Assembly: GCA_902634185.1 (NCBI GenBank)
Contig: CACPJC010000003.1
Coordinates: 32,369-96,368, forward strand
Reading direction: 5' to 3'
Length of the DNA stretch: 64,000 nt
Source: an uncultured Candidatus Actinomarina sp.
Lineage (GTDB): Bacteria; Actinomycetota; Acidimicrobiia; Actinomarinales; Actinomarinaceae
Shown: positions 6,970-52,180 of the stretch, piece after piece
How positions within the stretch are numbered: the first letter of the stretch is position 1
Layout: each line of letters opens with the position of its first letter
The notes under the pieces: generated by a model
Database searches by the model: none
The model's input: only the letters and a program-made list of their open reading frames with translations
What the model was told of the DNA's origin: nothing
Translations under genes and position numbers: made by a program

Positions 6970-7978
6970 AATTCCTCTCTCATATAAAAGAGCTGACTTT
7001 GCTAGTGACCAAGAGGTTAAATGGTGCCCTGGATGTGGTGATTATACAATTCTTGCTTCAGTGCAAAACTTTATGACTGAATTAGGTATCAGAAAAGAAA
7101 ATATTGTGTTTGTATCTGGCATTGGTTGTGCAGCAAGATTTCCTTACTACATGAACACATACGGTTTACATTCTATCCATGGTCGTGCTCCTGCAGTAGC
7201 TACTGGAGTAAGTGCATCTAACCCAGATCTTTCAGTTTGGGTAGTATCTGGAGATGGTGACGCACTATCTATTGGAGGAAACCACTTAATTCATGCACTA
7301 AGAAGAAATGTAAATATGAAGATTTTAATGTTCAATAATCAAATATATGGACTTACCAAAGGACAGTATTCCCCTACCAGTGAAGAAGGAAAGAAAACAA
7401 AATCTTCTCCCTTTGGTTCTGTAGAGCTTCCACTAAACCCAATGAGTTTAGCCTTAGGAGCTGAGGCATCATTTGTTGCAAGGTCAATTGATATGGATAG
7501 AGATCTTACAGCAGAGGTACTTCGAGCAGCATCTGAACATGAGGGCTCAGCTTATGTTGAGATTTATCAAAACTGTAACGTTTTTAATGACAAAGCCTTT
7601 GAGCAGTTAACTTCAAAGGAAGGAAAAATAGCAAATCGTATAAATCTAAAACATGGTGAGAAAGTTATCTTTGGAGCAGAAGATGAAAATGCTGTAACAA
7701 TTCGTGATGGAGAAGCGGTCATAGTCAAAAGATCTGAAATAGATGATAGTGAGATTTATGTTCATGACATTACAAAAGATAACCCTTCAATTGCTTTTTC
7801 ATTATCAAGATTATCTCATGGGCCTTATGGGCCAACGCCAGTAGGTATCTTTAGACAAGTTGAAAGAGATACTTACAATGATGAAGTCAGAGAACAAATT
7901 GACTCATCTATTGAGCAAAAAGGTGAAGGAGAACTTGATAAGCTTATTCGTTCTTTAGGAACTTGGGAAGTTAACTAA
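6962..7978 (+). CDS. korB: 2-oxoglutarate/2-oxoacid:ferredoxin oxidoreductase beta subunit (TPP-binding)
   Basis: CPGCGDY... TPP-binding beta subunit. 8-bp overlap with korA. Confidence 0.85.
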   Translation: MSKIPLSYKRADFASDQEVKWCPGCGDYTILASVQNFMTELGIRKENIVFVSGIGCAARFPYYMNTYGLHSIHGRAPAVATGVSASNPDLSVWVVSGDGDALSIGGNHLIHALRRNVNMKILMFNNQIYGLTKGQYSPTSEEGKKTKSSPFGSVELPLNPMSLALGAEASFVARSIDMDRDLTAEVLRAASEHEGSAYVEIYQNCNVFNDKAFEQLTSKEGKIANRINLKHGEKVIFGAEDENAVTIRDGEAVIVKRSEIDDSEIYVHDITKDNPSIAFSLSRLSHGPYGPTPVGIFRQVERDTYNDEVREQIDSSIEQKGEGELDKLIRSLGTWEVN

Positions 7979-9437: not shown

Positions 9438-10097
9438 ATGGAATCTAATATTTATAAAATCCGGTATGCTTTGATTGCAGAATTTTTAGGTACATTTGTT
9501 TTAGTTTTTATTGGGTGTGGTTCTATTATCCTTTCAGAAATAATGGAATTCAATAAAATATTTATTCCTATATCTTTTGGAGGATCAATTGCATTTATGG
9601 TTTATATATTAGGTAAATATTCGGGGGCACATTTTAATCCAGGTGTAACAATAGGATTTTTGATTGATAAAAAAATTAAATTAACTGACGCTTTTTTATA
9701 TATTTCAATACAGTTGTTTGGAGCCTTAATTGCATCATACATTCACTTATTAATGTTTGGCTATAACAACTCATTGGGTTTAACTGTTAAAAATACTTCT
9801 GATTTAAATGCTTACTTGTTAGAAATCTTCTTTACATTCTTACTGATGACCGTAATATTTCTTGTTACAAAAAAACAAAACTATTATGATGGAATAGCAA
9901 TTGGTGGGATTGTTGCAATAAGTGCATTCTTGATTGGAGATCTTACTGGTGGTTCATTAAATCCAGCACGTAGTCTTGGACCAATGATTGTAAAAGGAAA
10001 TTTTTTAAGTTTAGATTTATATATACTTGGACCAATAGTTGGAGCATCCTTAGCTTCCCTTATTAAAAAATTTATTGAGCAACTAATCAAAAACTAA
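9438..10097 (+). CDS. MIP-family channel (aquaporin/glycerol facilitator)
   Basis: Six-TM protein with SGAHFNPGVT (NPG variant of the first NPA box) and SLNPARSLGP (second NPA box with ar/R arginine). Confidence 0.85.
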   Translation: MESNIYKIRYALIAEFLGTFVLVFIGCGSIILSEIMEFNKIFIPISFGGSIAFMVYILGKYSGAHFNPGVTIGFLIDKKIKLTDAFLYISIQLFGALIASYIHLLMFGYNNSLGLTVKNTSDLNAYLLEIFFTFLLMTVIFLVTKKQNYYDGIAIGGIVAISAFLIGDLTGGSLNPARSLGPMIVKGNFLSLDLYILGPIVGASLASLIKKFIEQLIKN

Positions 10098-35050: not shown

Positions 35051-35845
35051 TTAAGCTGAACAAATATTGATGTAATCGGTTAAATACTCTTGTTCACTTG
35101 AATCTAATTCACCTGCTGTTCTGTAGTGATTGTATGCACCACCGTAATAACGCACAAGTGCATCAACTAAATATTCTTCCCCTCCAAAAAAGTCTCGTGC
35201 ATCTTGACGATATAACGTTGTTGAATTTTTTGGACAGTTCCTAGTTAAATATGTAAATGCATGAAGTGATTCATGAAGTAAAACATCATAAGAAACTGCA
35301 GCTGAAAAAGCTCTATCCGATATCCAAATAGAAAGTTTCCATTCTGCATTTTTGGTTCCATCTGAGCTTGTTCCGCTTGGATCCCATACTCCATAAGGAC
35401 ACCTCCCAACAAGTGAAGCCCCATATTGATGACAACCATTAATAACACTTATATTGTTTGTTTCGATTATTTGTAACAGTAATGGAGGTAATTGTTTGAC
35501 TAGTTCACCCAAAGTAGTTTGATTTGTGCCTTCGAATCCTGCGTATTCTGCAAATGGACCTGTGTAAACCGTTGTGGTTGTGGTTGAAGTGGTTGTTGTT
35601 GAAGTTGTAGATGTTGTGGTTGAAGTGGTTGTTGTTGAAGGTGGAACAGTTGTTGTTGAAGGTGGAACAGTGGTTGTAGTTGAAGATGTAGTAGTCGTTG
35701 GCTCAAGAGTTGTTGTAGTAGTATCAATGACTTGAATTTCTTCTTGTTCAAGTACAATTGTCTCTTCTTCTTGATTAAAGTTTATTACAACTAAAGAAAC
35801 AATTAATAACAGAAAAATAAATGAGTTTATATATCTGTTGTTCAT
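35051..35845 (-). CDS. Secreted protein: signal/anchor, a Thr/Pro-rich linker of about 60 aa, and a C-terminal domain with an HExxH motif (putative zinc metallopeptidase)
   Basis: N-terminal hydrophobic helix, TTTTSSTTTTVPPSTTTVPPSTTTTSTTTSTT linker, then LLHESLHAF in a Cys-containing domain. Confidence 0.6.
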   Translation of the reverse strand: MNNRYINSFIFLLLIVSLVVINFNQEEETIVLEQEEIQVIDTTTTTLEPTTTTSSTTTTVPPSTTTVPPSTTTTSTTTSTTSTTTTSTTTTTVYTGPFAEYAGFEGTNQTTLGELVKQLPPLLLQIIETNNISVINGCHQYGASLVGRCPYGVWDPSGTSSDGTKNAEWKLSIWISDRAFSAAVSYDVLLHESLHAFTYLTRNCPKNSTTLYRQDARDFFGGEEYLVDALVRYYGGAYNHYRTAGELDSSEQEYLTDYINICSA

Positions 35846-37287
35846 CTTCTGGCCTTTACTTTTATAAATAAACCTAGAATCAAAATTGTTAAAATGTATC
35901 CAATTAGGCCAATTGCAAAGGTTAAAGAAAATGAACCCATACTTAATAAATCTTGTTGCATGTTGGCAAATTCACTATCTGGAGGAACAATAAGAATTCT
36001 TATAAACAACCACAAACCCAATATAAAACTTAAAAGTGGAAAGATTTTAAAAACACCTTGAGAGTCGGTAAGAGATTCAAATAACTCATTTCCACCACCC
36101 GGCAGTGACTTAAACAAAACTCCTTCTAAACACATCAAATAGCTAAGGGCTGCAGCTGCCGTCAGTACCGTTGAGTCTTTAATAAGAGGTATAGATGTTA
36201 GATAGAAGAAACCAAACCCTGCAAGACTCAAAGCAATTGTTGAGTAAAATTTTGGTGAAAGTTTTGCTATATTTCTTCTTCCAGTGATGTACGCAGATGC
36301 AAAAAATCCAAATATAAATCCAATTGGCATTTCAAAATAGATGAAAGCAAGAGTAGAAATCCCCGCAAAAAATATTGCTTGAGGAGCCCATTTAATTCTT
36401 ACTTTTTGCTTAAAAACTTTACTCTCAATTAATCCCTCTGTCCCCTCGTAAAACAAAGTAACAGCAATTAACCCAACGAGTGCAGCAATAAATATTGCTA
36501 AATTTTCAAGATCTAAAGTTAGATCAGCTCCTTCCTCAACAAAGCCTATTAAAAATGCAGTTGAAAAAAGAACGAAAAGAACTTTAACTAAAGTAATAAG
36601 CTTCTTTGAGCCACGAATGTTTCTATCTTTGGCAAACCATCGAATATTATTCGTTGAAATAATTTTGTTAAACCATTCTTGTAAGAGCAACACTACATAA
36701 AACAAAAAGATGATTCCCGTTGAAACAATTACAGCGATGCTGTTTTTTTCTTGATCTGTCAGATCAACATCCTCAAATAAGGGAATAGACGTAATCAACT
36801 CATTTGTTATTTCAATATTTAAAAAATCAGTTTCCTCGATGACGGGTGGTGGAAGAGTTGTTGTAGTTGTTGAAGTGGTAGTTGTTGTTGAAGTTGTTGT
36901 TGGTGGTGGAATTATTTTTAATAATTTTTGATTTATGTATTCCATCTCAACTATTTTTTTACATTCCTCTGCAGGACAATCAGGCCCAGTAACATTCTCA
37001 AATTCAGTAATAAAAACGCGTATTGTGACCCTTACATAATCTGGATAGCAACATAGCTCAAGTTCGCCATCTGGGCTTTCAAGTTGAATTGTTTCAATAT
37101 TGTTGTCGTGTGAAATTTGGAGGACGATGTCATCATAGTCCTCAAAATTTATAGACCATTCAACTAATATCTTTTCATTTTCTAATCGTTTTATATCAAG
37201 CTTTATATTTTCGGTATCTAAAGTTGGAGTAAAAAATGAACCATTGAAAAAGAGGAGGAATAATAAAAATATTAGACTTTTTTTCAT
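35842..37287 (-). CDS. Polytopic membrane protein with an N-terminal extracytoplasmic domain and a Thr-rich linker (unknown function)
   Basis: Signal peptide, about 110-aa domain with a Cys pair, PPPTTTSTTTTTSTTTTTLPPP linker, then about 8 predicted TM helices. 4-bp overlap with the downstream gene. Confidence 0.6.
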   Translation of the reverse strand: MKKSLIFLLFLLFFNGSFFTPTLDTENIKLDIKRLENEKILVEWSINFEDYDDIVLQISHDNNIETIQLESPDGELELCCYPDYVRVTIRVFITEFENVTGPDCPAEECKKIVEMEYINQKLLKIIPPPTTTSTTTTTSTTTTTLPPPVIEETDFLNIEITNELITSIPLFEDVDLTDQEKNSIAVIVSTGIIFLFYVVLLLQEWFNKIISTNNIRWFAKDRNIRGSKKLITLVKVLFVLFSTAFLIGFVEEGADLTLDLENLAIFIAALVGLIAVTLFYEGTEGLIESKVFKQKVRIKWAPQAIFFAGISTLAFIYFEMPIGFIFGFFASAYITGRRNIAKLSPKFYSTIALSLAGFGFFYLTSIPLIKDSTVLTAAAALSYLMCLEGVLFKSLPGGGNELFESLTDSQGVFKIFPLLSFILGLWLFIRILIVPPDSEFANMQQDLLSMGSFSLTFAIGLIGYILTILILGLFIKVKARR

Positions 37288-37290
37288 TGA

Positions 37291-37920
37291 CTACTTTTGG
37301 ATTTTAGTTGCCTTTTCAAAAATTTCATTTACATTTTCTACATACCATTCATCTGTATATTTAGACCAGACGGGATAACTTGGATCATAACGTAGCCATA
37401 GAAATGTGGATCCATTGAATAATTGAAAAATATCATCAGCAAGTTCATCAGCAGAATCAGCATCATAATTTTTGCAGAGAGATTTGAGAACATCATAGGG
37501 TTCGCGCTGTATCCATTTTCCCGATGCTTGAATATCTCTAACTTCAAACCAAGCAAATCTAATTGCATTACCAAGTTCAACAACTTTATTTGCGATTGTG
37601 TCCAAAAACATGGTTATAGCGGCACCAGGCTCTGGGGAGGTTTGTAAAAATGCATTCAACTCATCAGCAACATCTTTAAATCCTAATTGAAATAGTGATC
37701 CATAAACATCTAATTTATTCTCAGGAAAATGATTGTAAGCAGTTGCAACAGACACTCCAGCATGCTTTGCAATTTGTGAGACAGTGACTTTTTCATGAGA
37801 AACGAGTGGATTATTAAATAGCTCGACTGCACTATTTATAAGTTTTTTATGCGCCTCATCATATGTTTTTTGTGCACGTAATGATCTTCCATCCTGTTTT
37901 TTTAATGGTTCAATGCTCAT
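37291..37920 (-). CDS. TetR-family transcriptional regulator
   Basis: HTH VSQIAKHAGVSVATAYNHFPEN. 209 aa. Its ATG directly abuts the TAA of the giant ORF (TAAATG). Confidence 0.85.
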   Translation of the reverse strand: MSIEPLKKQDGRSLRAQKTYDEAHKKLINSAVELFNNPLVSHEKVTVSQIAKHAGVSVATAYNHFPENKLDVYGSLFQLGFKDVADELNAFLQTSPEPGAAITMFLDTIANKVVELGNAIRFAWFEVRDIQASGKWIQREPYDVLKSLCKNYDADSADELADDIFQLFNGSTFLWLRYDPSYPVWSKYTDEWYVENVNEIFEKATKIQK

Positions 37921-39003
37921 TTAATTACCACTTTCTATCCTAGTAAGAATCCCTGAAACAACGAGTCTTTGCCTAGCAGAGTACCTAGGGTGACAAGTTG
38001 TCAATGTCAGCCTGTCATCACCTCGATTAAAAAGAACATAATCTCCTGTGTTAGCATCAACCACTTCTATATCATCCACAATGTAATGGTATTTATTTGA
38101 CCCATATGTTAAATAAATCTCATCTCCAATTTCGACCAAATCTAATCTACTGAAAGGGGCACCATATGTTGTCCTATGGCCTGCAATTCCAACATTTCCA
38201 CCTGAACCCGGTAGTTTTGTCCCAAGATAGTGTCCTGGACCAAATTGCAAATTAAGTTCATCAGTACCTGAAACAACATATTGATTTACGTTTATACCTG
38301 GAATTTCAAGAAGACCGAATATTTCAGGTTGAAATTCATCAATCTTTGCACTTTGGTCAATGATGGTAAAATCTTGCAAAGTTTCAAAAACAGGAATGTC
38401 ACTTTGGAATAAGCGAAGAGGATTTGAAAAAATTGTAGGAGGATCTACGTCCTTTATTTCCTCACCTAGATAGATTTGTTCAAGATAAGCTTGAGCATTG
38501 TCTTGTTGAACATTTGATAAAAACATTTGTTGTGTTGCATAAATACCAAAACCCATACCTGTAATTATCGATAAAACAGCAAATCCAAGAGCAGGTCGTT
38601 TTAATTTTTTTCTATCAAAAAATTTTCTGTTAATTTTTTTTGTGTCTTTTTTTCGAGAAAATACCTTTTTCTCCGCGATTTTTGCATCGAGCTCATTACC
38701 AGAATATATAATTTGAAAGTTATTTGAAATTAGACCCAAACGCTCTTCAAGAATTTCTTTTGTAAGTTCTGTATTTTCTTCCTCGCAAATAGATTTTATG
38801 TTTTCAATTGCGACTAGAGTATATTGAAGCTCACTATCAAGTGCTTGTATCTCTGATTGATAAGTTGTAAAACTCTTTGCATATGGAGCAAATTTATTTA
38901 TATCAATACTAATTTCTACTTTTTCTTGTATTAGTTTCTCAATTTTTGTTTTTAATTTGAAGGCATGCTTATAAATATCCTCTAGCGAAATTTCACTTTC
39001 CAT
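37921..39003 (-). CDS. Class E sortase module (possible independent gene starting at the ATG at 39003..39001)
   Basis: About 130-aa cytoplasmic charged region, a TM helix (ALGFAVLSIITGMGFGIYA), then a catalytic domain with GHRTTYGAPF (His), LTLTTCHP (TLxTC Cys) and a downstream Arg. These are sortase hallmarks. A long N-terminal extension before the TM is typical of class E enzymes. Confidence 0.7.
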   Translation of the reverse strand: MESEISLEDIYKHAFKLKTKIEKLIQEKVEISIDINKFAPYAKSFTTYQSEIQALDSELQYTLVAIENIKSICEEENTELTKEILEERLGLISNNFQIIYSGNELDAKIAEKKVFSRKKDTKKINRKFFDRKKLKRPALGFAVLSIITGMGFGIYATQQMFLSNVQQDNAQAYLEQIYLGEEIKDVDPPTIFSNPLRLFQSDIPVFETLQDFTIIDQSAKIDEFQPEIFGLLEIPGINVNQYVVSGTDELNLQFGPGHYLGTKLPGSGGNVGIAGHRTTYGAPFSRLDLVEIGDEIYLTYGSNKYHYIVDDIEVVDANTGDYVLFNRGDDRLTLTTCHPRYSARQRLVVSGILTRIESGN

Positions 39004-49615: not shown

Positions 49616-52180
49616 TTATTCATCACCATCAGCGATTCCATCTGTGTCAGCATCTGAGCTTGCATTTGGGTCTAAAGGAAATGCATCTAAAGAGTCTAAT
49701 ACCCCATCACCATCATCATCTGTGTCTGATGAATTATCGATACCGTCTCCATCTGTATCAACAGCAGTTAGTTTCCATCTTCTCATAAATTCATCTTCAA
49801 ACATTACTATTCCTACTTCAGGGTTCACCCAAAAATTTAGTATCTGTAAAGACCGGTGAAATGAACTTGATGCACCAATACTAACTTGTGAATGAGTAAT
49901 TTTGTATGCATCGTATGCACCGTGAGGTGTAACAACTAACTCTTGATTTACATAATTTGTAAAATTCCAAGTATCGTAATAAGTAGTGCCAAAAGTGGAT
50001 GTATTTTCATATCTTGAAGAACAATCTGATTCATTATATTCACCTGTCTTCATGTAATGGTCAATGAATAGACAAGGATTTTGAAATTCTCTTTCAATAG
50101 AGCCGTCACTTGGTGTTGAACCGGCAAATATCTTTTCCCAACCAACAGTCTTTATAAAGTAATTACCATTGTTTATATAAAATAATATTCCAAATTTATG
50201 GTTAACATCGCCTGTATTAAATGGATTCACATAATTCATGTCACAATTTTGTGTATCACACCAGTAAAAAGTTTCGTATGTAGTTCCACCATCCTCAATA
50301 TCTGAGCCTTTTTCGACATACATTGTTTTTGTTGCAGAAGTAGTTTCAGAAATTGATTCTGTAAAGCTATATGACGATGAACCACCATCAATTAATGGAA
50401 AATATGCTTTTGATTTTATTGAATAACTTCCGATGTCAACGCCATAATTTGTAGATGGCCCAAATCTGTCATATTCATGTGCATATTCTTGCATTACTCT
50501 CGAAGCATCAGATTGATCATTTACTCCAGCACTTTGTGTGCCTTGTGTTCCATCATTTTGATAGTGGAAAGGAATGCCAAGATCATTTACTTCTGGAAAT
50601 CCAGCACATGTTAAATCTGGATTTGAATAAATTCCACAAAAAGCCATTCCATACCCTACGAGAGTTGAGAAAGGTTGGTCGCCTGTCTGATTATAAGCAT
50701 GTGCATAATCGGTAATTCCATCTCCTGTTGATCCAGGATTTGAACTTTGCTCTCTTGAATGTGCTATCCCCAAAGCATGTCCTAACTCATGTGGAAAGAG
50801 CTTGTTATTATATCTGTAATCCAAGCTTGTAACTTTGAAAACATTTCTCCTGTCTTTTGTTGTATCTCTATATAAATATGAAGAACTTCCCTCTCCAGGA
50901 AGGAGTGCACCTACAATATCAGCACCTTTTTTAACTTTAGTTTTGTGGACTTCTTGATCATATTGTAAAAAGTTTAAAATATTGCTACTTACGTCTGAGT
51001 AAGTCACATTCCAAGAATGGATATCCAAAACATTCATTTCCAAGTTAGTAATCTGACTATTCGCAAAAATCTCATTTTGATTTGTCTCTAACTGACCCTG
51101 AGCAAAAGAAAGCAATTCACTGGTAGTATCGTAATCGCTTGGTGCAGATCCAATTGTGTCATTGTGGTAAACAAGTAAAAGATCTATGGAAAATTTTTCT
51201 GATATATCTGTCACGTTAACTGTAAAATTTTTGCAAGATATTCCCAAACTGTCAGTCACATTTGCAGTTGCTGAATAACTTGTCTTTTGCTCATAGTCAG
51301 CATTTGTATTTAAAGTTATTACTCCGTTTGAATCAACCGACATAAGTCTTGAATCACTTCCAGTAATTGAGTAAGACAATGTGCCTGATCCCGTTGCTGA
51401 AATGGTATCAATAGATTTTTGATTTTCATTTATTGTTATTGGAGTAGTTAAATTAGTAATTGTTGGACCATTGCTACAGCTATCCTCAGAAGAATTTCCT
51501 GATCCAGTTCCACCAGTTCCACCAGTTCCAGGTGTTATTCCTGGGATGGGTTTTTCTATAAAATCAAAACCACTATTTTTTAATTGTTTATGTTCATCGC
51601 AGTCTCTATATGTAGTCCATTCACCTGCTGCATTCCATAAAGTTCCAACTTCTCCATGCCACATCTTTCCACCATCATCACAATCAATTTTCTCACTTAC
51701 TGTTTCCGTGATAATTTCATCAACCTCTGTGATAACTTCATCGACCTCTAAGAGATTTTGTTTTATTGGTCTATTTTCAAAAAAAGTACATTCTTTGTAA
51801 GCTAAATAGTCACCGCAATCTATAAATATAGCTTTGACCTCCATCTCACAATTGTTATAAGTTGTCATAGCTTTATGTGTTGAAGGTCCAATAATGCCAT
51901 CAACTCTAATCCCAATAAATCTTTGAAAATTTTTGATTGCTAGCCTAAGACTTTTTGTCATATAAGCTTCAATTTTTCCAGTGAAAAAACCTTCTTCATT
52001 CAGAAAATCATATAAATTACTAACTTCAAGAAAATTTACGTTACCGTAATTATTTTCAACACATTCCTGAGTAGTTTCATTAAAGACTGATTCAGTTACT
52101 TCGATTTGGGTTGGAAACATTAGAGTTGTAAAAATAATCAAAAATACAAAAATAAAACAAGTAAAAATTCTCCAACCCAT
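49616..52180 (-). CDS. Secreted/anchored multidomain metzincin with a peptidoglycan-binding domain, a cadherin-like domain and TSP3-like Ca-binding repeats
   Basis: N-terminal TM/signal, PG_binding_1-like LRLAIKNFQRFIGIRVDGIIGPSTHKAM, HELGHALGIAHS (HExxHxxGxxH), and C-terminal DTDGDGIDNSSDTDDDGDGVLDSLDAFPLDPNASSDADTDGIADGDE. Confidence 0.75.
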   Translation of the reverse strand: MGWRIFTCFIFVFLIIFTTLMFPTQIEVTESVFNETTQECVENNYGNVNFLEVSNLYDFLNEEGFFTGKIEAYMTKSLRLAIKNFQRFIGIRVDGIIGPSTHKAMTTYNNCEMEVKAIFIDCGDYLAYKECTFFENRPIKQNLLEVDEVITEVDEIITETVSEKIDCDDGGKMWHGEVGTLWNAAGEWTTYRDCDEHKQLKNSGFDFIEKPIPGITPGTGGTGGTGSGNSSEDSCSNGPTITNLTTPITINENQKSIDTISATGSGTLSYSITGSDSRLMSVDSNGVITLNTNADYEQKTSYSATANVTDSLGISCKNFTVNVTDISEKFSIDLLLVYHNDTIGSAPSDYDTTSELLSFAQGQLETNQNEIFANSQITNLEMNVLDIHSWNVTYSDVSSNILNFLQYDQEVHKTKVKKGADIVGALLPGEGSSSYLYRDTTKDRRNVFKVTSLDYRYNNKLFPHELGHALGIAHSREQSSNPGSTGDGITDYAHAYNQTGDQPFSTLVGYGMAFCGIYSNPDLTCAGFPEVNDLGIPFHYQNDGTQGTQSAGVNDQSDASRVMQEYAHEYDRFGPSTNYGVDIGSYSIKSKAYFPLIDGGSSSYSFTESISETTSATKTMYVEKGSDIEDGGTTYETFYWCDTQNCDMNYVNPFNTGDVNHKFGILFYINNGNYFIKTVGWEKIFAGSTPSDGSIEREFQNPCLFIDHYMKTGEYNESDCSSRYENTSTFGTTYYDTWNFTNYVNQELVVTPHGAYDAYKITHSQVSIGASSSFHRSLQILNFWVNPEVGIVMFEDEFMRRWKLTAVDTDGDGIDNSSDTDDDGDGVLDSLDAFPLDPNASSDADTDGIADGDE

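What the first reader, a model, noticed from the sequence alone, without database searches (positions are those of the whole stretch)
37921..46932. Sortase substrate and its sortase encoded as one uninterrupted 9-kb ORF
The giant repeat protein ends in a canonical sorting signal: LAATG, a hydrophobic helix, then RKRK. The reading frame does not stop there. It runs straight into a full class E sortase, with about 130 aa of cytoplasmic charged region, a TM helix, and a catalytic domain carrying GHRTTYGAPF and LTLTTCHP.

The topology is self-consistent. The substrate is outside, the TM passes in, a cytoplasmic loop follows, a second TM passes out, and the sortase catalytic domain is outside. A single polypeptide could therefore cleave its own LAAT|G and transfer its N-terminal 2600 aa to the wall, behaving as an 'auto-sorting' adhesin.

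I am not aware of described sortase-substrate fusions of this kind. The operon continues, tightly coupled, into a TetR regulator, a polytopic membrane protein and a secreted HExxH protein.
Basis: partly seen in the sequence, partly recalled or inferred. Interest (0 to 1): 0.85.

Follow-up and report, generated by a model that had tools for sequence, protein, structure and literature searches.

The report
Surface protein fused to its sortase
In tiny marine Actinomarina bacteria, a giant cell-surface protein and the sortase enzyme expected to cut it and fix it to the cell wall are made as one 3003-residue chain, and this fusion is conserved across many related genomes, so it is not a sequencing error.

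Summary
Window 37921..46932 (-) is one uninterrupted 3003-aa frame. It reads: signal peptide, about 2550 aa of variable repeat passenger, LAATG, TM1, RKRK, a 137-aa cytoplasmic domain, TM2, then a sortase domain (Pfam E 1.6e-29; His2919, Cys2980 and Arg2989 invariant).

The homopolymer-error explanation is refuted. Eight independent Ca. Actinomarina single-cell or metagenome genomes keep the frame open. Two of them lack the off-frame TAA, and one breaks the A-run. Of the 120 best database homologs (97% down to about 34% identity), 69 carry [L/M]A[A/E/N/D]TG plus TM plus basic tail in the same chain. dN/dS across the junction is 0.09-0.19.

Two basal sister clades have separate genes: a substrate with a genuine C-terminal sorting signal and stop, then a sortase with its own N-terminal TM. 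The fusion therefore looks derived, probably through an in-frame deletion between the two TM segments.

Cleavage at LAAT|G would leave a 390-aa two-TM sortase, the same size as the free enzyme in the unfused relatives.

Self-processing and wall anchoring are inferred, not shown. Whether cleavage is in cis or in trans is unresolved. Class E is the best-matching class but falls below NCBI's cutoff. I found no prior description. This is a new variant of a known kind.

The parts
37921..46932 (-). Single 3003-aa ORF encoding passenger, sorting signal and sortase
   Evidence: The start codon lies somewhere in 46831..46932.
46762..46932 (-). N-terminal signal peptide region (aa 1-57), with a likely cleavage site at AFA|SS
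   Evidence: Hydrophobic segment aa 29-51. The ETVDxEPAFA motif is conserved in the orthologues of L002, L003, L006, L008, L011 and L016.
45799..46761 (-). Variable N-terminal passenger domain (aa 58-378), no Pfam match
   Evidence: Only 23-73% identical between SAGs whose sortase module is 94-98% identical.
39499..45798 (-). About 20 tandem two-Cys repeat domains of 104-119 aa with Asp-box-like S.DGG..W motifs (aa 379-2478). Includes a 29-residue poly-Thr run at 40528..40614.
39106..39498 (-). Thr/Pro/Asp linker (aa 2479-2559) and the conserved acidic pre-motif module EGNDFxxWDxxxEDxYxTDGxYxVxYxYxED (aa 2560-2609)
   Evidence: Consensus of alignments A1 and A2. The same module precedes the sorting motif in the unfused substrate of L016.
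39091..39105 (-). LAATG sorting motif (aa 2610-2614). The predicted cleavage is between T2613 and G2614.
   Evidence: [L/M]A[A/E/N/D]TG is present in 69 of the 120 best homologs at a constant distance of 308-321 aa from GHRTTYGAPF.
39019..39090 (-). TM1 (aa 2615-2638), the stop-transfer helix of the sorting signal. It is similar both to the substrate's sorting-signal TM and to the sortase's N-terminal TM of unfused relatives.
39007..39018 (-). RKRK positive tail (aa 2639-2642), encoded by the A-rich tract cgaaaaagaaaa
   Evidence: The tract varies in relatives with no change of frame.
38593..39006 (-). Cytoplasmic domain (aa 2643-2780), a predicted alpha/beta fold with no known relative. Contains the in-frame Met2644 (39001..39003).
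   Evidence: AF2 pLDDT 74.8. No PDB fold match. dN/dS 0.05-0.06.
38533..38592 (-). TM2 (aa 2781-2800), a signal-anchor helix preceded by a Lys/Arg-rich stretch
37924..38532 (-). Extracellular linker (aa 2801-2874) and sortase catalytic domain (aa 2875-3003), with Tyr2902, His2919, Cys2980 and Arg2989
37291..37920 (-). TetR-family regulator, with its start codon directly abutting the sortase stop codon. A protein of about 212 aa sits at this position in most related loci.
35842..37287 (-). 481-aa protein: signal peptide, ecto domain, poly-Thr linker and about 8 TM segments. A protein of 476-540 aa follows the sortase (or the sortase plus the TetR-like gene) in both fused and unfused loci.
   Evidence: Weak match to NF041501, 49 bits against a cutoff of 150.
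35051..35845 (-). 264-aa signal-anchored protein with a poly-Thr linker and an HESLH motif
   Evidence: No Pfam or NCBIfam match.

Best explanation
The ORF is a genuine, evolutionarily maintained fusion of a giant, variable cell-surface protein with its own dedicated class-E-like sortase.

Proposed mechanism, with each step marked as shown or inferred:
1. The N-terminal signal peptide takes about 2550 aa of repeat passenger through Sec. The sequence features are shown; export is inferred.
2. TM1 and the RKRK tail stop transfer, exactly as a normal cell-wall sorting signal does. The sequence is shown; the topology is inferred from hydropathy and the positive-inside rule.
3. A 137-aa folded domain stays in the cytoplasm (inferred from the AF2 model).
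4. TM2 re-inserts and places the sortase domain outside (inferred).
5. Cys2980 attacks the T2613-G2614 bond of LAATG, either in its own chain or in a neighbouring precursor. This forms a thioester with the passenger, which is then transferred to a peptidoglycan precursor amine (inferred from established sortase chemistry).
6. What remains is a 390-aa two-TM sortase (G2614-N3003). It has the same size and layout as the free sortases encoded separately in the unfused sister clade (P0109-type, 390 aa; layout and size are shown).

The fusion probably arose once, by an in-frame deletion. That deletion joined the substrate's sorting-signal TM to the sortase's own N-terminal TM and removed the charged tail, the stop codon(s) and the sortase start.
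For: The fusion is real:
- One open frame with no internal stop.
- Eight independent Ca. Actinomarina SAG/MAG loci are open through the junction. L001 and L005 lack the off-frame TAA, and L008 breaks the A-run. Where contigs allow, the open frames are 2351-2874 aa.
- 69 of the 120 best homologs are fused: LAATG 36, LAETG 11, LANTG 10, MADTG 7, LADTG 5.
- Apparently 'short' sortase calls trace to scaffold gaps or frame breaks further upstream. The junction itself stays in frame in L011, L012, L013, L018 and L024.
- dN/dS is 0.09-0.19 across LAATG-TM1-RKRK at dS 0.7-1.0, and 0.02-0.06 in the flanking cytoplasmic and catalytic parts.

The enzyme looks active:
- Pfam Sortase E 1.6e-29 and TIGR01076 85.7 bits against a cutoff of 39.
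- His, Cys and Arg are invariant in 55 sequences.
- The fold matches solved sortases at E 1e-12 to 1e-13.
- Class E is the best class. The top PDB sequence hits are S. avermitilis SrtE and C. diphtheriae SrtF.
- All 69 fused forms have Ala at P3, the class E signature (PMC5148588).

The orthologous unfused state exists:
- L016/L017: a 1686-aa orthologous substrate (E 2e-137) ends ...IAATG-TM-RRRRD-TAA-TAA. It is followed by a 390-aa sortase that starts with its own TM and a KKK stretch.
- L022/L023: a 3747-aa substrate ends LPVTG-TM-RKAYRF, with TGA overlapping the ATG of a 553-aa two-TM sortase.
- In an outgroup-rooted tree the whole family groups in 60/60 bootstraps. Clade A is basal, fused plus clade B group in 53/60, and the fused forms are monophyletic in 37/60.
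- The substrate TM and the sortase TM of L016 resemble each other (z 4.8) but not TM2. TM1 of the fused P0182 looks chimeric between them (z 13 and 7.8).
Against: - No biochemical, proteomic or expression data exist. Cleavage at LAAT|G and wall attachment are inferred only.
- AF2 does not dock LAATG into the active site; that segment has pLDDT below 50.
- NF033747 (class E) scores below NCBI's curated cutoff, 110 against 160.
- The excised sorting segment falls just short of the TIGR01167 cutoff, 15.3 against 15.9, and has no Pfam Gram_pos_anchor hit.
- Monophyly of the fused forms has only moderate support (37/60). The direction of change, fusion or fission, is therefore not settled.
- In the window's own clade an in-frame ATG directly follows the tail. 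Shine-Dalgarno sequences are rare in this genome, so a separately initiated sortase cannot be excluded there.
- The cell-wall chemistry of Actinomarinales is unknown (PMC7771536).
Confidence: 0.72

Rival explanations
1. Sequencing or assembly artefact: one extra A in the cgaaaaagaaaa tract merged two ordinary overlapping genes, a substrate ending ...YRKRN-TAA and a sortase starting at ATG 39003.
For: The +1 frame has a TAA overlapping the ATG (cTAATGg), a typical stop-start overlap. The unfused clade A really does use such an overlap, TGATG.
Against: - Eight independent assemblies keep the frame. Two of them lack the off-frame TAA, and one interrupts the A-run.
- The fusion is conserved down to about 34% identity, in clades whose junction DNA is unrelated.
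- There is purifying selection across the junction.
- If the genes were split at the ATG, the sortase would lack the N-terminal TM that both unfused clades have.
Confidence: 0.02
2. One ORF but two proteins. Ribosomes either start internally (ATG 39003, or elsewhere before TM2) or shift frame in the A-rich tract. The cell would then make an ordinary free substrate and an ordinary free type-II sortase, and the fusion would have no functional consequence.
For: - Met2644 is conserved in the window's clade and in the P0013/P0014 clade.
- Most genes in this window lack a recognisable Shine-Dalgarno sequence, so the absence of one is uninformative.
- Both alternative frames terminate within 4-8 codons after the tract, leaving a plausible charged tail.
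Against: - The Met is replaced by Leu, with non-start codons (TTA TTA; CTT ATA TTA), in the LAETG and second LAATG clades, and is absent in the LADTG clade.
- The off-frame stop is not conserved even among close relatives.
- The A5 run is too short for efficient transcriptional slippage (general knowledge).
- The zero frame is under purifying selection straight through the junction.
- Internal initiation would not prevent full-length translation in any case.
Confidence: 0.1
3. The internal LAxTG is not cleaved. The passenger stays tethered to the membrane through TM1, and the sortase domain serves other substrates or has a non-catalytic role.
For: - A sorting signal followed by 360 residues is not the canonical C-terminal context.
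- TIGR01167 scores just below threshold on the excised segment and there is no Pfam anchor hit.
- AF2 shows no docking of the motif.
Against: - The pentapeptide is conserved in all 69 fused homologs with T-G invariant, Ala at P3 and constant spacing, while the flanks diverge.
- The catalytic His, Cys and Arg are invariant.
- The motif is orthologous to the genuine C-terminal signals of the unfused substrates.
- No other sorting-signal protein or sortase lies in the 64-kb window.
- Engineered sortase-LPXTG fusions do self-cleave (for example PMC2901362, listed). A free C-terminus is therefore not required.
Confidence: 0.13

Closest known systems
Class E sortases and their LAxTG substrates (S. 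coelicolor SrtE1/SrtE2, S. avermitilis SrtE, T. fusca SrtE, C. diphtheriae SrtF)
   Same: - Actinobacterial housekeeping-type sortase fold with a His-Cys-Arg triad.
- Best HMM class and best PDB sequence hits.
- Ala at P3 of the motif.
- A GPGHY Tyr before the catalytic His, shared with SrtE and SrtF in the HMMER alignments.
- A cytoplasmic N-terminal extension of 100-200 aa, as in SrtE1, where it is needed in vivo (PMC5148588).
   Different: - Known class E enzymes are separate proteins with one N-terminal TM, and they serve many substrates.
- Here the enzyme scores below the class E cutoff (110 against 160 bits).
- It has two TM segments, and the first of them doubles as the substrate's sorting-signal helix.
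- It is translated as the C-terminus of its substrate.
- The cytoplasmic domain has no detectable relative.
Dedicated sorting systems: a sorting enzyme with a single adjacent target, for example the class GN 'marine' sortase TIGR03784 with its neighbouring LPXTG protein (Haft; PMC3237569)
   Same: A one-enzyme, one-neighbouring-target logic at a conserved locus. The unfused sister clades are exactly this, with a stop-start overlap.
   Different: In dedicated systems the two are separate genes and proteins. Here the intergenic boundary, the stop codon and one TM have been lost. Whether the passenger is the only sortase target in the genome could not be tested.
Engineered self-cleaving sortase fusions (SrtA-LPXTG-target purification tags, for example BISOP, PMC2901362)
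   Same: Enzyme and recognition motif sit in one polypeptide, and cleavage at T|G separates the two halves.
   Different: - Those fusions are artificial, soluble and ordered enzyme-motif-cargo.
- They release cargo by hydrolysis or glycine attack.
- The natural protein is ordered cargo-motif-TM-loop-TM-enzyme, spans the membrane twice, and is expected to transfer the cargo to peptidoglycan.
Self-processing secreted polyproteins (type Va autotransporters; Hedgehog C-terminal autoprocessing domain). Functional analogy only, from general knowledge.
   Same: A C-terminal module in the same chain mediates the final placement of an N-terminal passenger and is separated from it by cleavage. Hedgehog also uses a thioester intermediate, resolved by a lipid nucleophile.
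   Different: There is no homology. The folds, membranes and chemistry of attachment all differ.

Membership tests
Sortase family (Pfam PF04203 / TIGR01076) | Domain HMM above the curated threshold | tested here: met
   PF04203 scores 102.6 bits against 26.6. TIGR01076 scores 85.7 bits against 39.35.
Sortase family (Pfam PF04203 / TIGR01076) | Catalytic His, the Cys of the TLxTC motif, and Arg | tested here: met
   His2919, Cys2980 (LTLTTCHP) and Arg2989 are invariant in 55 aligned homologs.
Sortase family (Pfam PF04203 / TIGR01076) | Eight-stranded sortase beta-barrel fold | tested here: met
   The AF2 catalytic part has pLDDT 80-92. Foldseek against PDB returns only sortases, at E 2e-13 and weaker, with TM-score to target 0.6-0.83.
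Class E sortase (NCBIfam NF033747) | Subfamily HMM above the curated cutoff | tested here: not met
   110.1 bits against a cutoff of 160. It is nevertheless the best-scoring class: D 91, C 87, GN 64, F 17. NCBI names the homolog P0032 'class E sortase'.
Class E sortase (NCBIfam NF033747) | Cognate substrates carry LAxTG (Ala at P3) | tested here: met
   The window has LAATG. All 69 fused homologs have Ala at P3. The basal unfused clade A substrate has LPVTG instead.
Class E sortase (NCBIfam NF033747) | Conserved Tyr in the beta3/beta4 loop that reads the P3 Ala (SrtE1 Tyr229; PMC5148588) | tested here: inconclusive
   Tyr2902 in GPGHY is at least 90% conserved. It aligns with the Tyr of GLGHY (5go5, SrtE) and GPGHY (5uus, SrtF). 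Residue equivalence to SrtE1 Tyr229 was not established, and the pairwise alignment to SaSrtA is ambiguous in this loop.
LPXTG-type cell-wall sorting signal (TIGR01167 / Pfam PF00746) | Pentapeptide, then about 20 hydrophobic residues, then a positively charged tail | tested here: met
   LAATG, a 24-residue hydrophobic stretch, then RKRK.
LPXTG-type cell-wall sorting signal (TIGR01167 / Pfam PF00746) | HMM above the curated cutoff | tested here: inconclusive
   On the excised segment TIGR01167 gives 15.3 bits against 15.9, matching model positions 2-34 of 34. The genuine C-terminal signal of clade A scores 19.8, while the equally genuine L016 signal scores nothing. PF00746 gives no hit for the window.
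LPXTG-type cell-wall sorting signal (TIGR01167 / Pfam PF00746) | Located at the extreme C-terminus of the protein | tested here: not met
   361 residues follow the RKRK tail in the same frame. This is the point of the finding.
Dedicated sortase system (single target next to its enzyme; Haft, PMC3237569) | Target and enzyme encoded next to each other | tested here: met
   They are adjacent in the unfused clades and fused here. The locus is syntenic (hom-thrC ... rho-rpmE-prfA) in the loci long enough to show both flanks.
Dedicated sortase system (single target next to its enzyme; Haft, PMC3237569) | Only one sorting-signal protein and one such sortase in the genome | not testable with these tools
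   There is no other sorting signal or sortase in the 64-kb window. Whole genomes could not be scanned.

The most novel reading that the evidence does not exclude
The fusion is an obligate self-anchoring surface protein. Each precursor carries its own sortase, which acts in cis as an essentially single-turnover enzyme. It cuts its own LAAT|G and hands its own 2600-aa passenger to the cell wall. This would be a Gram-positive counterpart of autotransporter or Hedgehog-style autoprocessing, evolved in one of the smallest free-living cells. The conserved cytoplasmic domain would couple the step to wall synthesis or to the translocon.
Probability: 0.3. Interest if true: 0.85.

Novelty: new variant of a known kind. 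Interest (0 to 1): 0.72.

Why it matters
Sortases are textbook trans-acting enzymes: one membrane enzyme anchors many separately made substrates. A natural, conserved substrate-sortase fusion changes that picture in several ways.

- It would be the first case, as far as I could find, in which enzyme and substrate are made at 1:1 stoichiometry as one chain.
- It shows that a sorting signal can work, or at least be maintained by selection, as an internal element.
- It comes with fused and unfused orthologues side by side. That makes long-standing questions directly testable: cis versus trans recognition, how sortases find substrates at the translocon, and what the cytoplasmic extensions of class E enzymes do.
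- It assigns a likely role to the largest gene of Ca. Actinomarina, an abundant and uncultured ocean lineage whose envelope is unknown. That role is a hypervariable, probably wall-anchored fibre, a plausible interface with phages and grazers.
- The compact C-terminal module, about 390-450 aa, could be useful as a self-contained surface-display cassette.

Tried and rejected
- **Exact-sequence look-up of the 3003-aa protein:** not on record.
- **AF2 of the C-terminal 414 aa, to see whether LAATG docks in the active site:** the motif region has pLDDT below 50, so the model is uninformative on this.
- **Foldseek against PDB, to assign the sortase class:** the fold does not discriminate between classes.
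- **AF2 plus Foldseek of the cytoplasmic domain alone:** confident alpha/beta core, but no PDB match with E below 1.
- **Pfam on the N-terminal passenger domain and on the unfused 1686-aa substrate:** nothing.
- **Literature searches, all ten used**. No paper holds both 'sortase' and Actinomarina or Actinomarinales. The Actinomarinales genome paper never mentions sortase, LPXTG or a giant protein. Only engineered self-cleaving fusions turned up. One search was wasted on the chemistry term 'self-sorting'.
- **Scan of the 143 further cluster representatives listed in the 1.84-billion-protein search for independent sortase-plus-upstream-sorting-signal fusions:** none found outside this family. 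The regex is crude.
- **Midpoint-rooted tree:** it suggested that unfused clades were nested among fused ones. The outgroup-rooted, bootstrapped tree replaced it.
- **Apparent 'standalone' sortase calls** (P0022, P0028, P0038, P0056, P0063 and P0100): all are explained by scaffold gaps, upstream frame breaks or an in-frame stop in error-prone assemblies. None is an unfused junction.
- **The dN/dS comparison with L018** was invalid, because stop codons broke the codon alignment. I ignored it.
Full report
**1. The observation**

The ORF listing returns a single ORF, 37921..46932 on the minus strand, 3003 aa. Its translation has no internal stop.
- LAATG at aa 2610-2614 (window 39091..39105)
- a 24-residue hydrophobic segment at aa 2615-2638
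- RKRK at aa 2639-2642 (window 39007..39018)
- an in-frame Met at aa 2644 (ATG 39003..39001)
- a second hydrophobic segment at aa 2781-2800
- GHRTTYGAPF from aa 2918 and LTLTTCHP from aa 2975

Pfam places a Sortase domain at aa 2875-2994 (E 1.6e-29). In the +1 frame the tract reads ...EKEN-TAA, with the TAA overlapping the ATG (cTAATGg). One fewer A would therefore produce a normal pair of overlapping genes. The question is whether the fusion is real.

**2. The fusion is real**

A search with the 453 residues spanning the junction returned dozens of proteins, from 97% down to about 34% identity, that cover both sides of the junction in one chain.

Census of the 120 best hits:
- 69 carry [L/M]A[A/E/N/D]TG plus a hydrophobic helix plus a Lys/Arg tail, 308-321 residues upstream of GHRTTYGAPF: LAATG 36, LAETG 11, LANTG 10, MADTG 7, LADTG 5.
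- 23 are N-terminally truncated and cannot be assessed.
- 26 belong to two unfused clades (section 3).

A scan of one genome per GTDB species gave eight Ca. Actinomarina single-cell or metagenome assemblies (L001-L008, sortase part 83-98% identical). In all eight the frame is open through the junction. Where the contig allows, the open frame is 2351-2874 aa. L001 (AAAACTTATGG) and L005 (AAAACTCATGG) do not even have the off-frame TAA, and L008 interrupts the A-run (AAGAAGAC).

Homologs that gene callers reported as 'short' sortases turned out to be calls truncated by scaffold gaps (L011, L012, L024), by frame breaks further upstream in the repeats (L013, L018), or by an in-frame stop in a pilon-polished contig with frame breaks (L014). 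In L011, L012, L013, L018 and L024 the sorting motif is in frame with the sortase; L014 belongs to unfused clade A (section 3).

Between the window and L005, L006 and L007, synonymous divergence across LAATG-TM1-RKRK is 0.7-1.0 while dN/dS is 0.09-0.19. The flanking cytoplasmic and catalytic parts have dN/dS 0.02-0.06. The frame has been kept by selection for a long time. The artefact hypothesis is refuted.

**3. Unfused relatives and how the fusion arose**

The locus is syntenic in the loci long enough to show both flanks (L013, L015 and L016 upstream; L011-L014, L022 and L023 downstream): hom, thrC, giant gene, sortase, a TetR-like gene of about 212 aa, a membrane protein of about 480 aa, then SBF, rho, rpmE, DUF1385, prfA and prmC. 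The TARA loci of the LADTG clade (L019-L021) have a different downstream context. Two clades have separate genes.

*Clade B (L015-L017).* The 1686-aa protein is orthologous to the window's passenger from the signal peptide onward (E 2e-137). It ends ...YVYTEDELPIAATG-IFQDLYVFFFVVFSSAGIVLINWLP-RRRRD-TAA-TAA. The next gene encodes a 390-aa sortase that begins with its own TM and KKK stretch (IGQEFTNDLLTLIGVVLSISGVILFDAKKK), followed by the same cytoplasmic domain, TM2 and catalytic domain.

*Clade A (L022/L023, on contigs of 481 kb and over 1 Mb).* The 3747-aa protein ends ...KLPVTG-SNIGGLIISFGLLLIAGGAFLL-RKAYRF. Its TGA overlaps the ATG (TTCTGATGG) of a 553-aa sortase that again starts with a TM helix.

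A two-TM sortase with a cytoplasmic loop is therefore a trait of the whole family.

An outgroup-rooted NJ tree of the TM2-to-C-terminus part groups the family in 60/60 bootstraps. Clade A is basal, fused plus clade B group in 53/60, and the fused forms are monophyletic in 37/60. The most economical reading is that separate, translationally coupled genes are ancestral and the fusion is derived, probably once.

In L016 the substrate's sorting-signal TM and the sortase's N-terminal TM resemble each other (Smith-Waterman 34 against 17.4 +/- 3.4 for shuffles, z 4.8). Neither resembles TM2 (z 0-0.9). The single TM1 of the fused P0182 matches the substrate TM in its N-terminal half (DLYVF) and the sortase TM in its C-terminal half (VLSITGVLLF), with z 13 and 7.8. 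This chimeric pattern is what an in-frame deletion between the two TM-coding segments would leave. Such a deletion removes the charged tail, the stop codon(s), the sortase start and one helix, and so preserves topology. The reverse route, fission by duplication of the TM unit, is not excluded.

**4. What the parts are**

*Passenger.* After a signal peptide with a conserved ...ETVDPEPAFA|SS site come a 320-aa domain with no family match and about 20 tandem two-Cys repeats of 104-119 aa. The repeats carry Asp-box-like motifs, and Ser plus Thr make up 31% of the passenger. Then follow poly-Thr and Thr/Pro/Asp linkers and a conserved acidic module just before the motif. Between genomes whose sortase module is 94-98% identical, the passenger is mosaic. 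The N-terminal domain is 23-73% identical, with large repeat insertions and deletions. That is the pattern expected of an exposed, diversifying surface fibre.

*Sortase.*
- TIGR01076 is above its cutoff. Class E (NF033747) is the best class at 110 bits but below the curated 160.
- The best PDB sequence hits are S. avermitilis SrtE and C. diphtheriae SrtF.
- His2919, Cys2980 and Arg2989 are invariant, and Tyr2902 in GPGHY is nearly so.
- The modelled fold matches solved sortases of every class equally well.
- Ala at P3 in every fused motif fits class E specificity (PMC5148588).

*Cytoplasmic segment.* AF2 predicts a folded alpha/beta domain (pLDDT 74.8, core 80-90) with no PDB fold match. It parallels the cytoplasmic extension that SrtE1 needs in vivo, but homology between the two was not examined.

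*Sorting signal as an excised segment.* It matches the whole TIGR01167 LPXTG-anchor model at 15.3 bits, just under the 15.9 cutoff.

**5. Most likely mechanism**

Export of the passenger, stop-transfer at TM1, and re-insertion at TM2 put the sortase domain on the same side of the membrane as LAATG, which lies five residues from the membrane. A 74-residue linker tethers the catalytic domain. Cys2980 should attack T2613-G2614, in its own chain or in a neighbour, and pass the passenger to a peptidoglycan precursor.

The remaining fragment, G2614-N3003, is 390 aa. That is the same length and layout as the free clade B sortase, so it could go on working in trans.

The architecture, its conservation and the intact catalytic residues are shown. 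Topology, cleavage and wall transfer are inferred from established sortase biology.

Two lesser rivals remain:
- Internal initiation or frameshifting could give separate proteins. The Met is not conserved and is replaced by non-start Leu codons in other clades. However, Shine-Dalgarno sequences are rare here, so initiation at ATG 39003 cannot be excluded in this clade.
- The motif could be uncleaved. This is hard to reconcile with its strict conservation.

**6. Comparison and novelty**

The unfused clades are classic 'dedicated' sorting systems in Haft's sense, an enzyme next to its single target (PMC3237569). The fusion is the limiting case of such a system.

Engineered SrtA-LPXTG fusions self-cleave (PMC2901362). 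They are soluble and ordered the other way round.

I found no paper that mentions sortase together with Actinomarina or Actinomarinales, and none that describes a natural substrate-sortase fusion. NCBI labels a homolog simply 'class E sortase, partial'. A profile search of 1.84 billion cluster representatives found 19,322 sortase-like proteins. Among the 150 best hits, only about 10-17 clusters match the profile upstream of TM2 (pre-motif module, TM1 or cytoplasmic domain); the rest match only the TM2-linker-catalytic part. I saw no independent fusion among the 143 further representatives listed.

I rate it a new variant of a known kind: a sortase system with a new, conserved architecture. Interest is high but capped by the lack of any experimental evidence for processing.

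Noticed in passing
window 35842..37287 (-), 37291..37920 (-) and 35051..35845 (-); also L011, L013, L014, L016, L018, L019, L022, L023: A membrane protein of 476-540 aa (signal peptide, ecto domain, poly-Thr linker, about 8 TM segments) follows the sortase in both fused and unfused clades. Its only family hit is a weak match to NF041501 'FGLLP motif-containing membrane protein', 49 bits against a cutoff of 150. A TetR-like protein of about 212 aa usually sits between it and the sortase. It may be a further component of the anchoring system. The 264-aa HESLH protein downstream has no family match.
   Followed up: partly
P0097, P0122 (sortases of unfused clade A; L022 10001..11662): The cytoplasmic part of these two-TM sortases carries a RecA C-terminal domain (PF21096, E 4.7e-19). 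This is an unexpected domain to find inside a sortase.
   Followed up: no
window 39499..46761 (-) compared with L002, L003, L006, L008: The passenger is mosaic and hypervariable between genomes whose sortase module is 94-98% identical. The N-terminal domain is 23-73% identical. Repeat blocks are gained and lost, giving open frames of 2351-3003 aa.
   Followed up: partly
window 40528..40614 (-); also inside 35842..37287 and 35051..35845: There is a run of 29 consecutive Thr codons in the giant protein. Similar poly-Thr linkers occur in the two downstream secreted or membrane proteins. This suggests a shared, probably glycosylated, stalk design.
   Followed up: no
window 49616..52180 (-): An 854-aa protein with a peptidoglycan-binding domain (PG_binding_1, E 3e-9) and a borderline reprolysin-like metalloprotease domain lies three genes upstream of the giant gene. 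An 849-aa protein with PG_binding_1 occupies the same place in L013.
   Followed up: no
L013 (frame breaks at about 7065-7071 and 9980-10001), L014 (in-frame stop at 9986-9988), L018 (2399-2505): In some metagenome contigs the giant gene or the sortase is split by frame breaks or an in-frame stop. I did not resolve whether these are assembly errors or real pseudogenes. They explain several misleading 'standalone sortase' database entries.
   Followed up: partly
P0045 (527 aa): One fused homolog reads LAATC instead of LAATG at the motif. It is either an error or a natural variant that should block cleavage.
   Followed up: no
P0072: A fused homolog is annotated 'sortase, partial [Nitrosopumilaceae archaeon]'. 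This is almost certainly a mis-binned Actinomarinales contig.
   Followed up: no
window, gene starts listed: Most genes in the window lack a recognisable Shine-Dalgarno sequence, and many abut or overlap their neighbours. That fits a highly streamlined genome and may make gene fusion a small evolutionary step.
   Followed up: no
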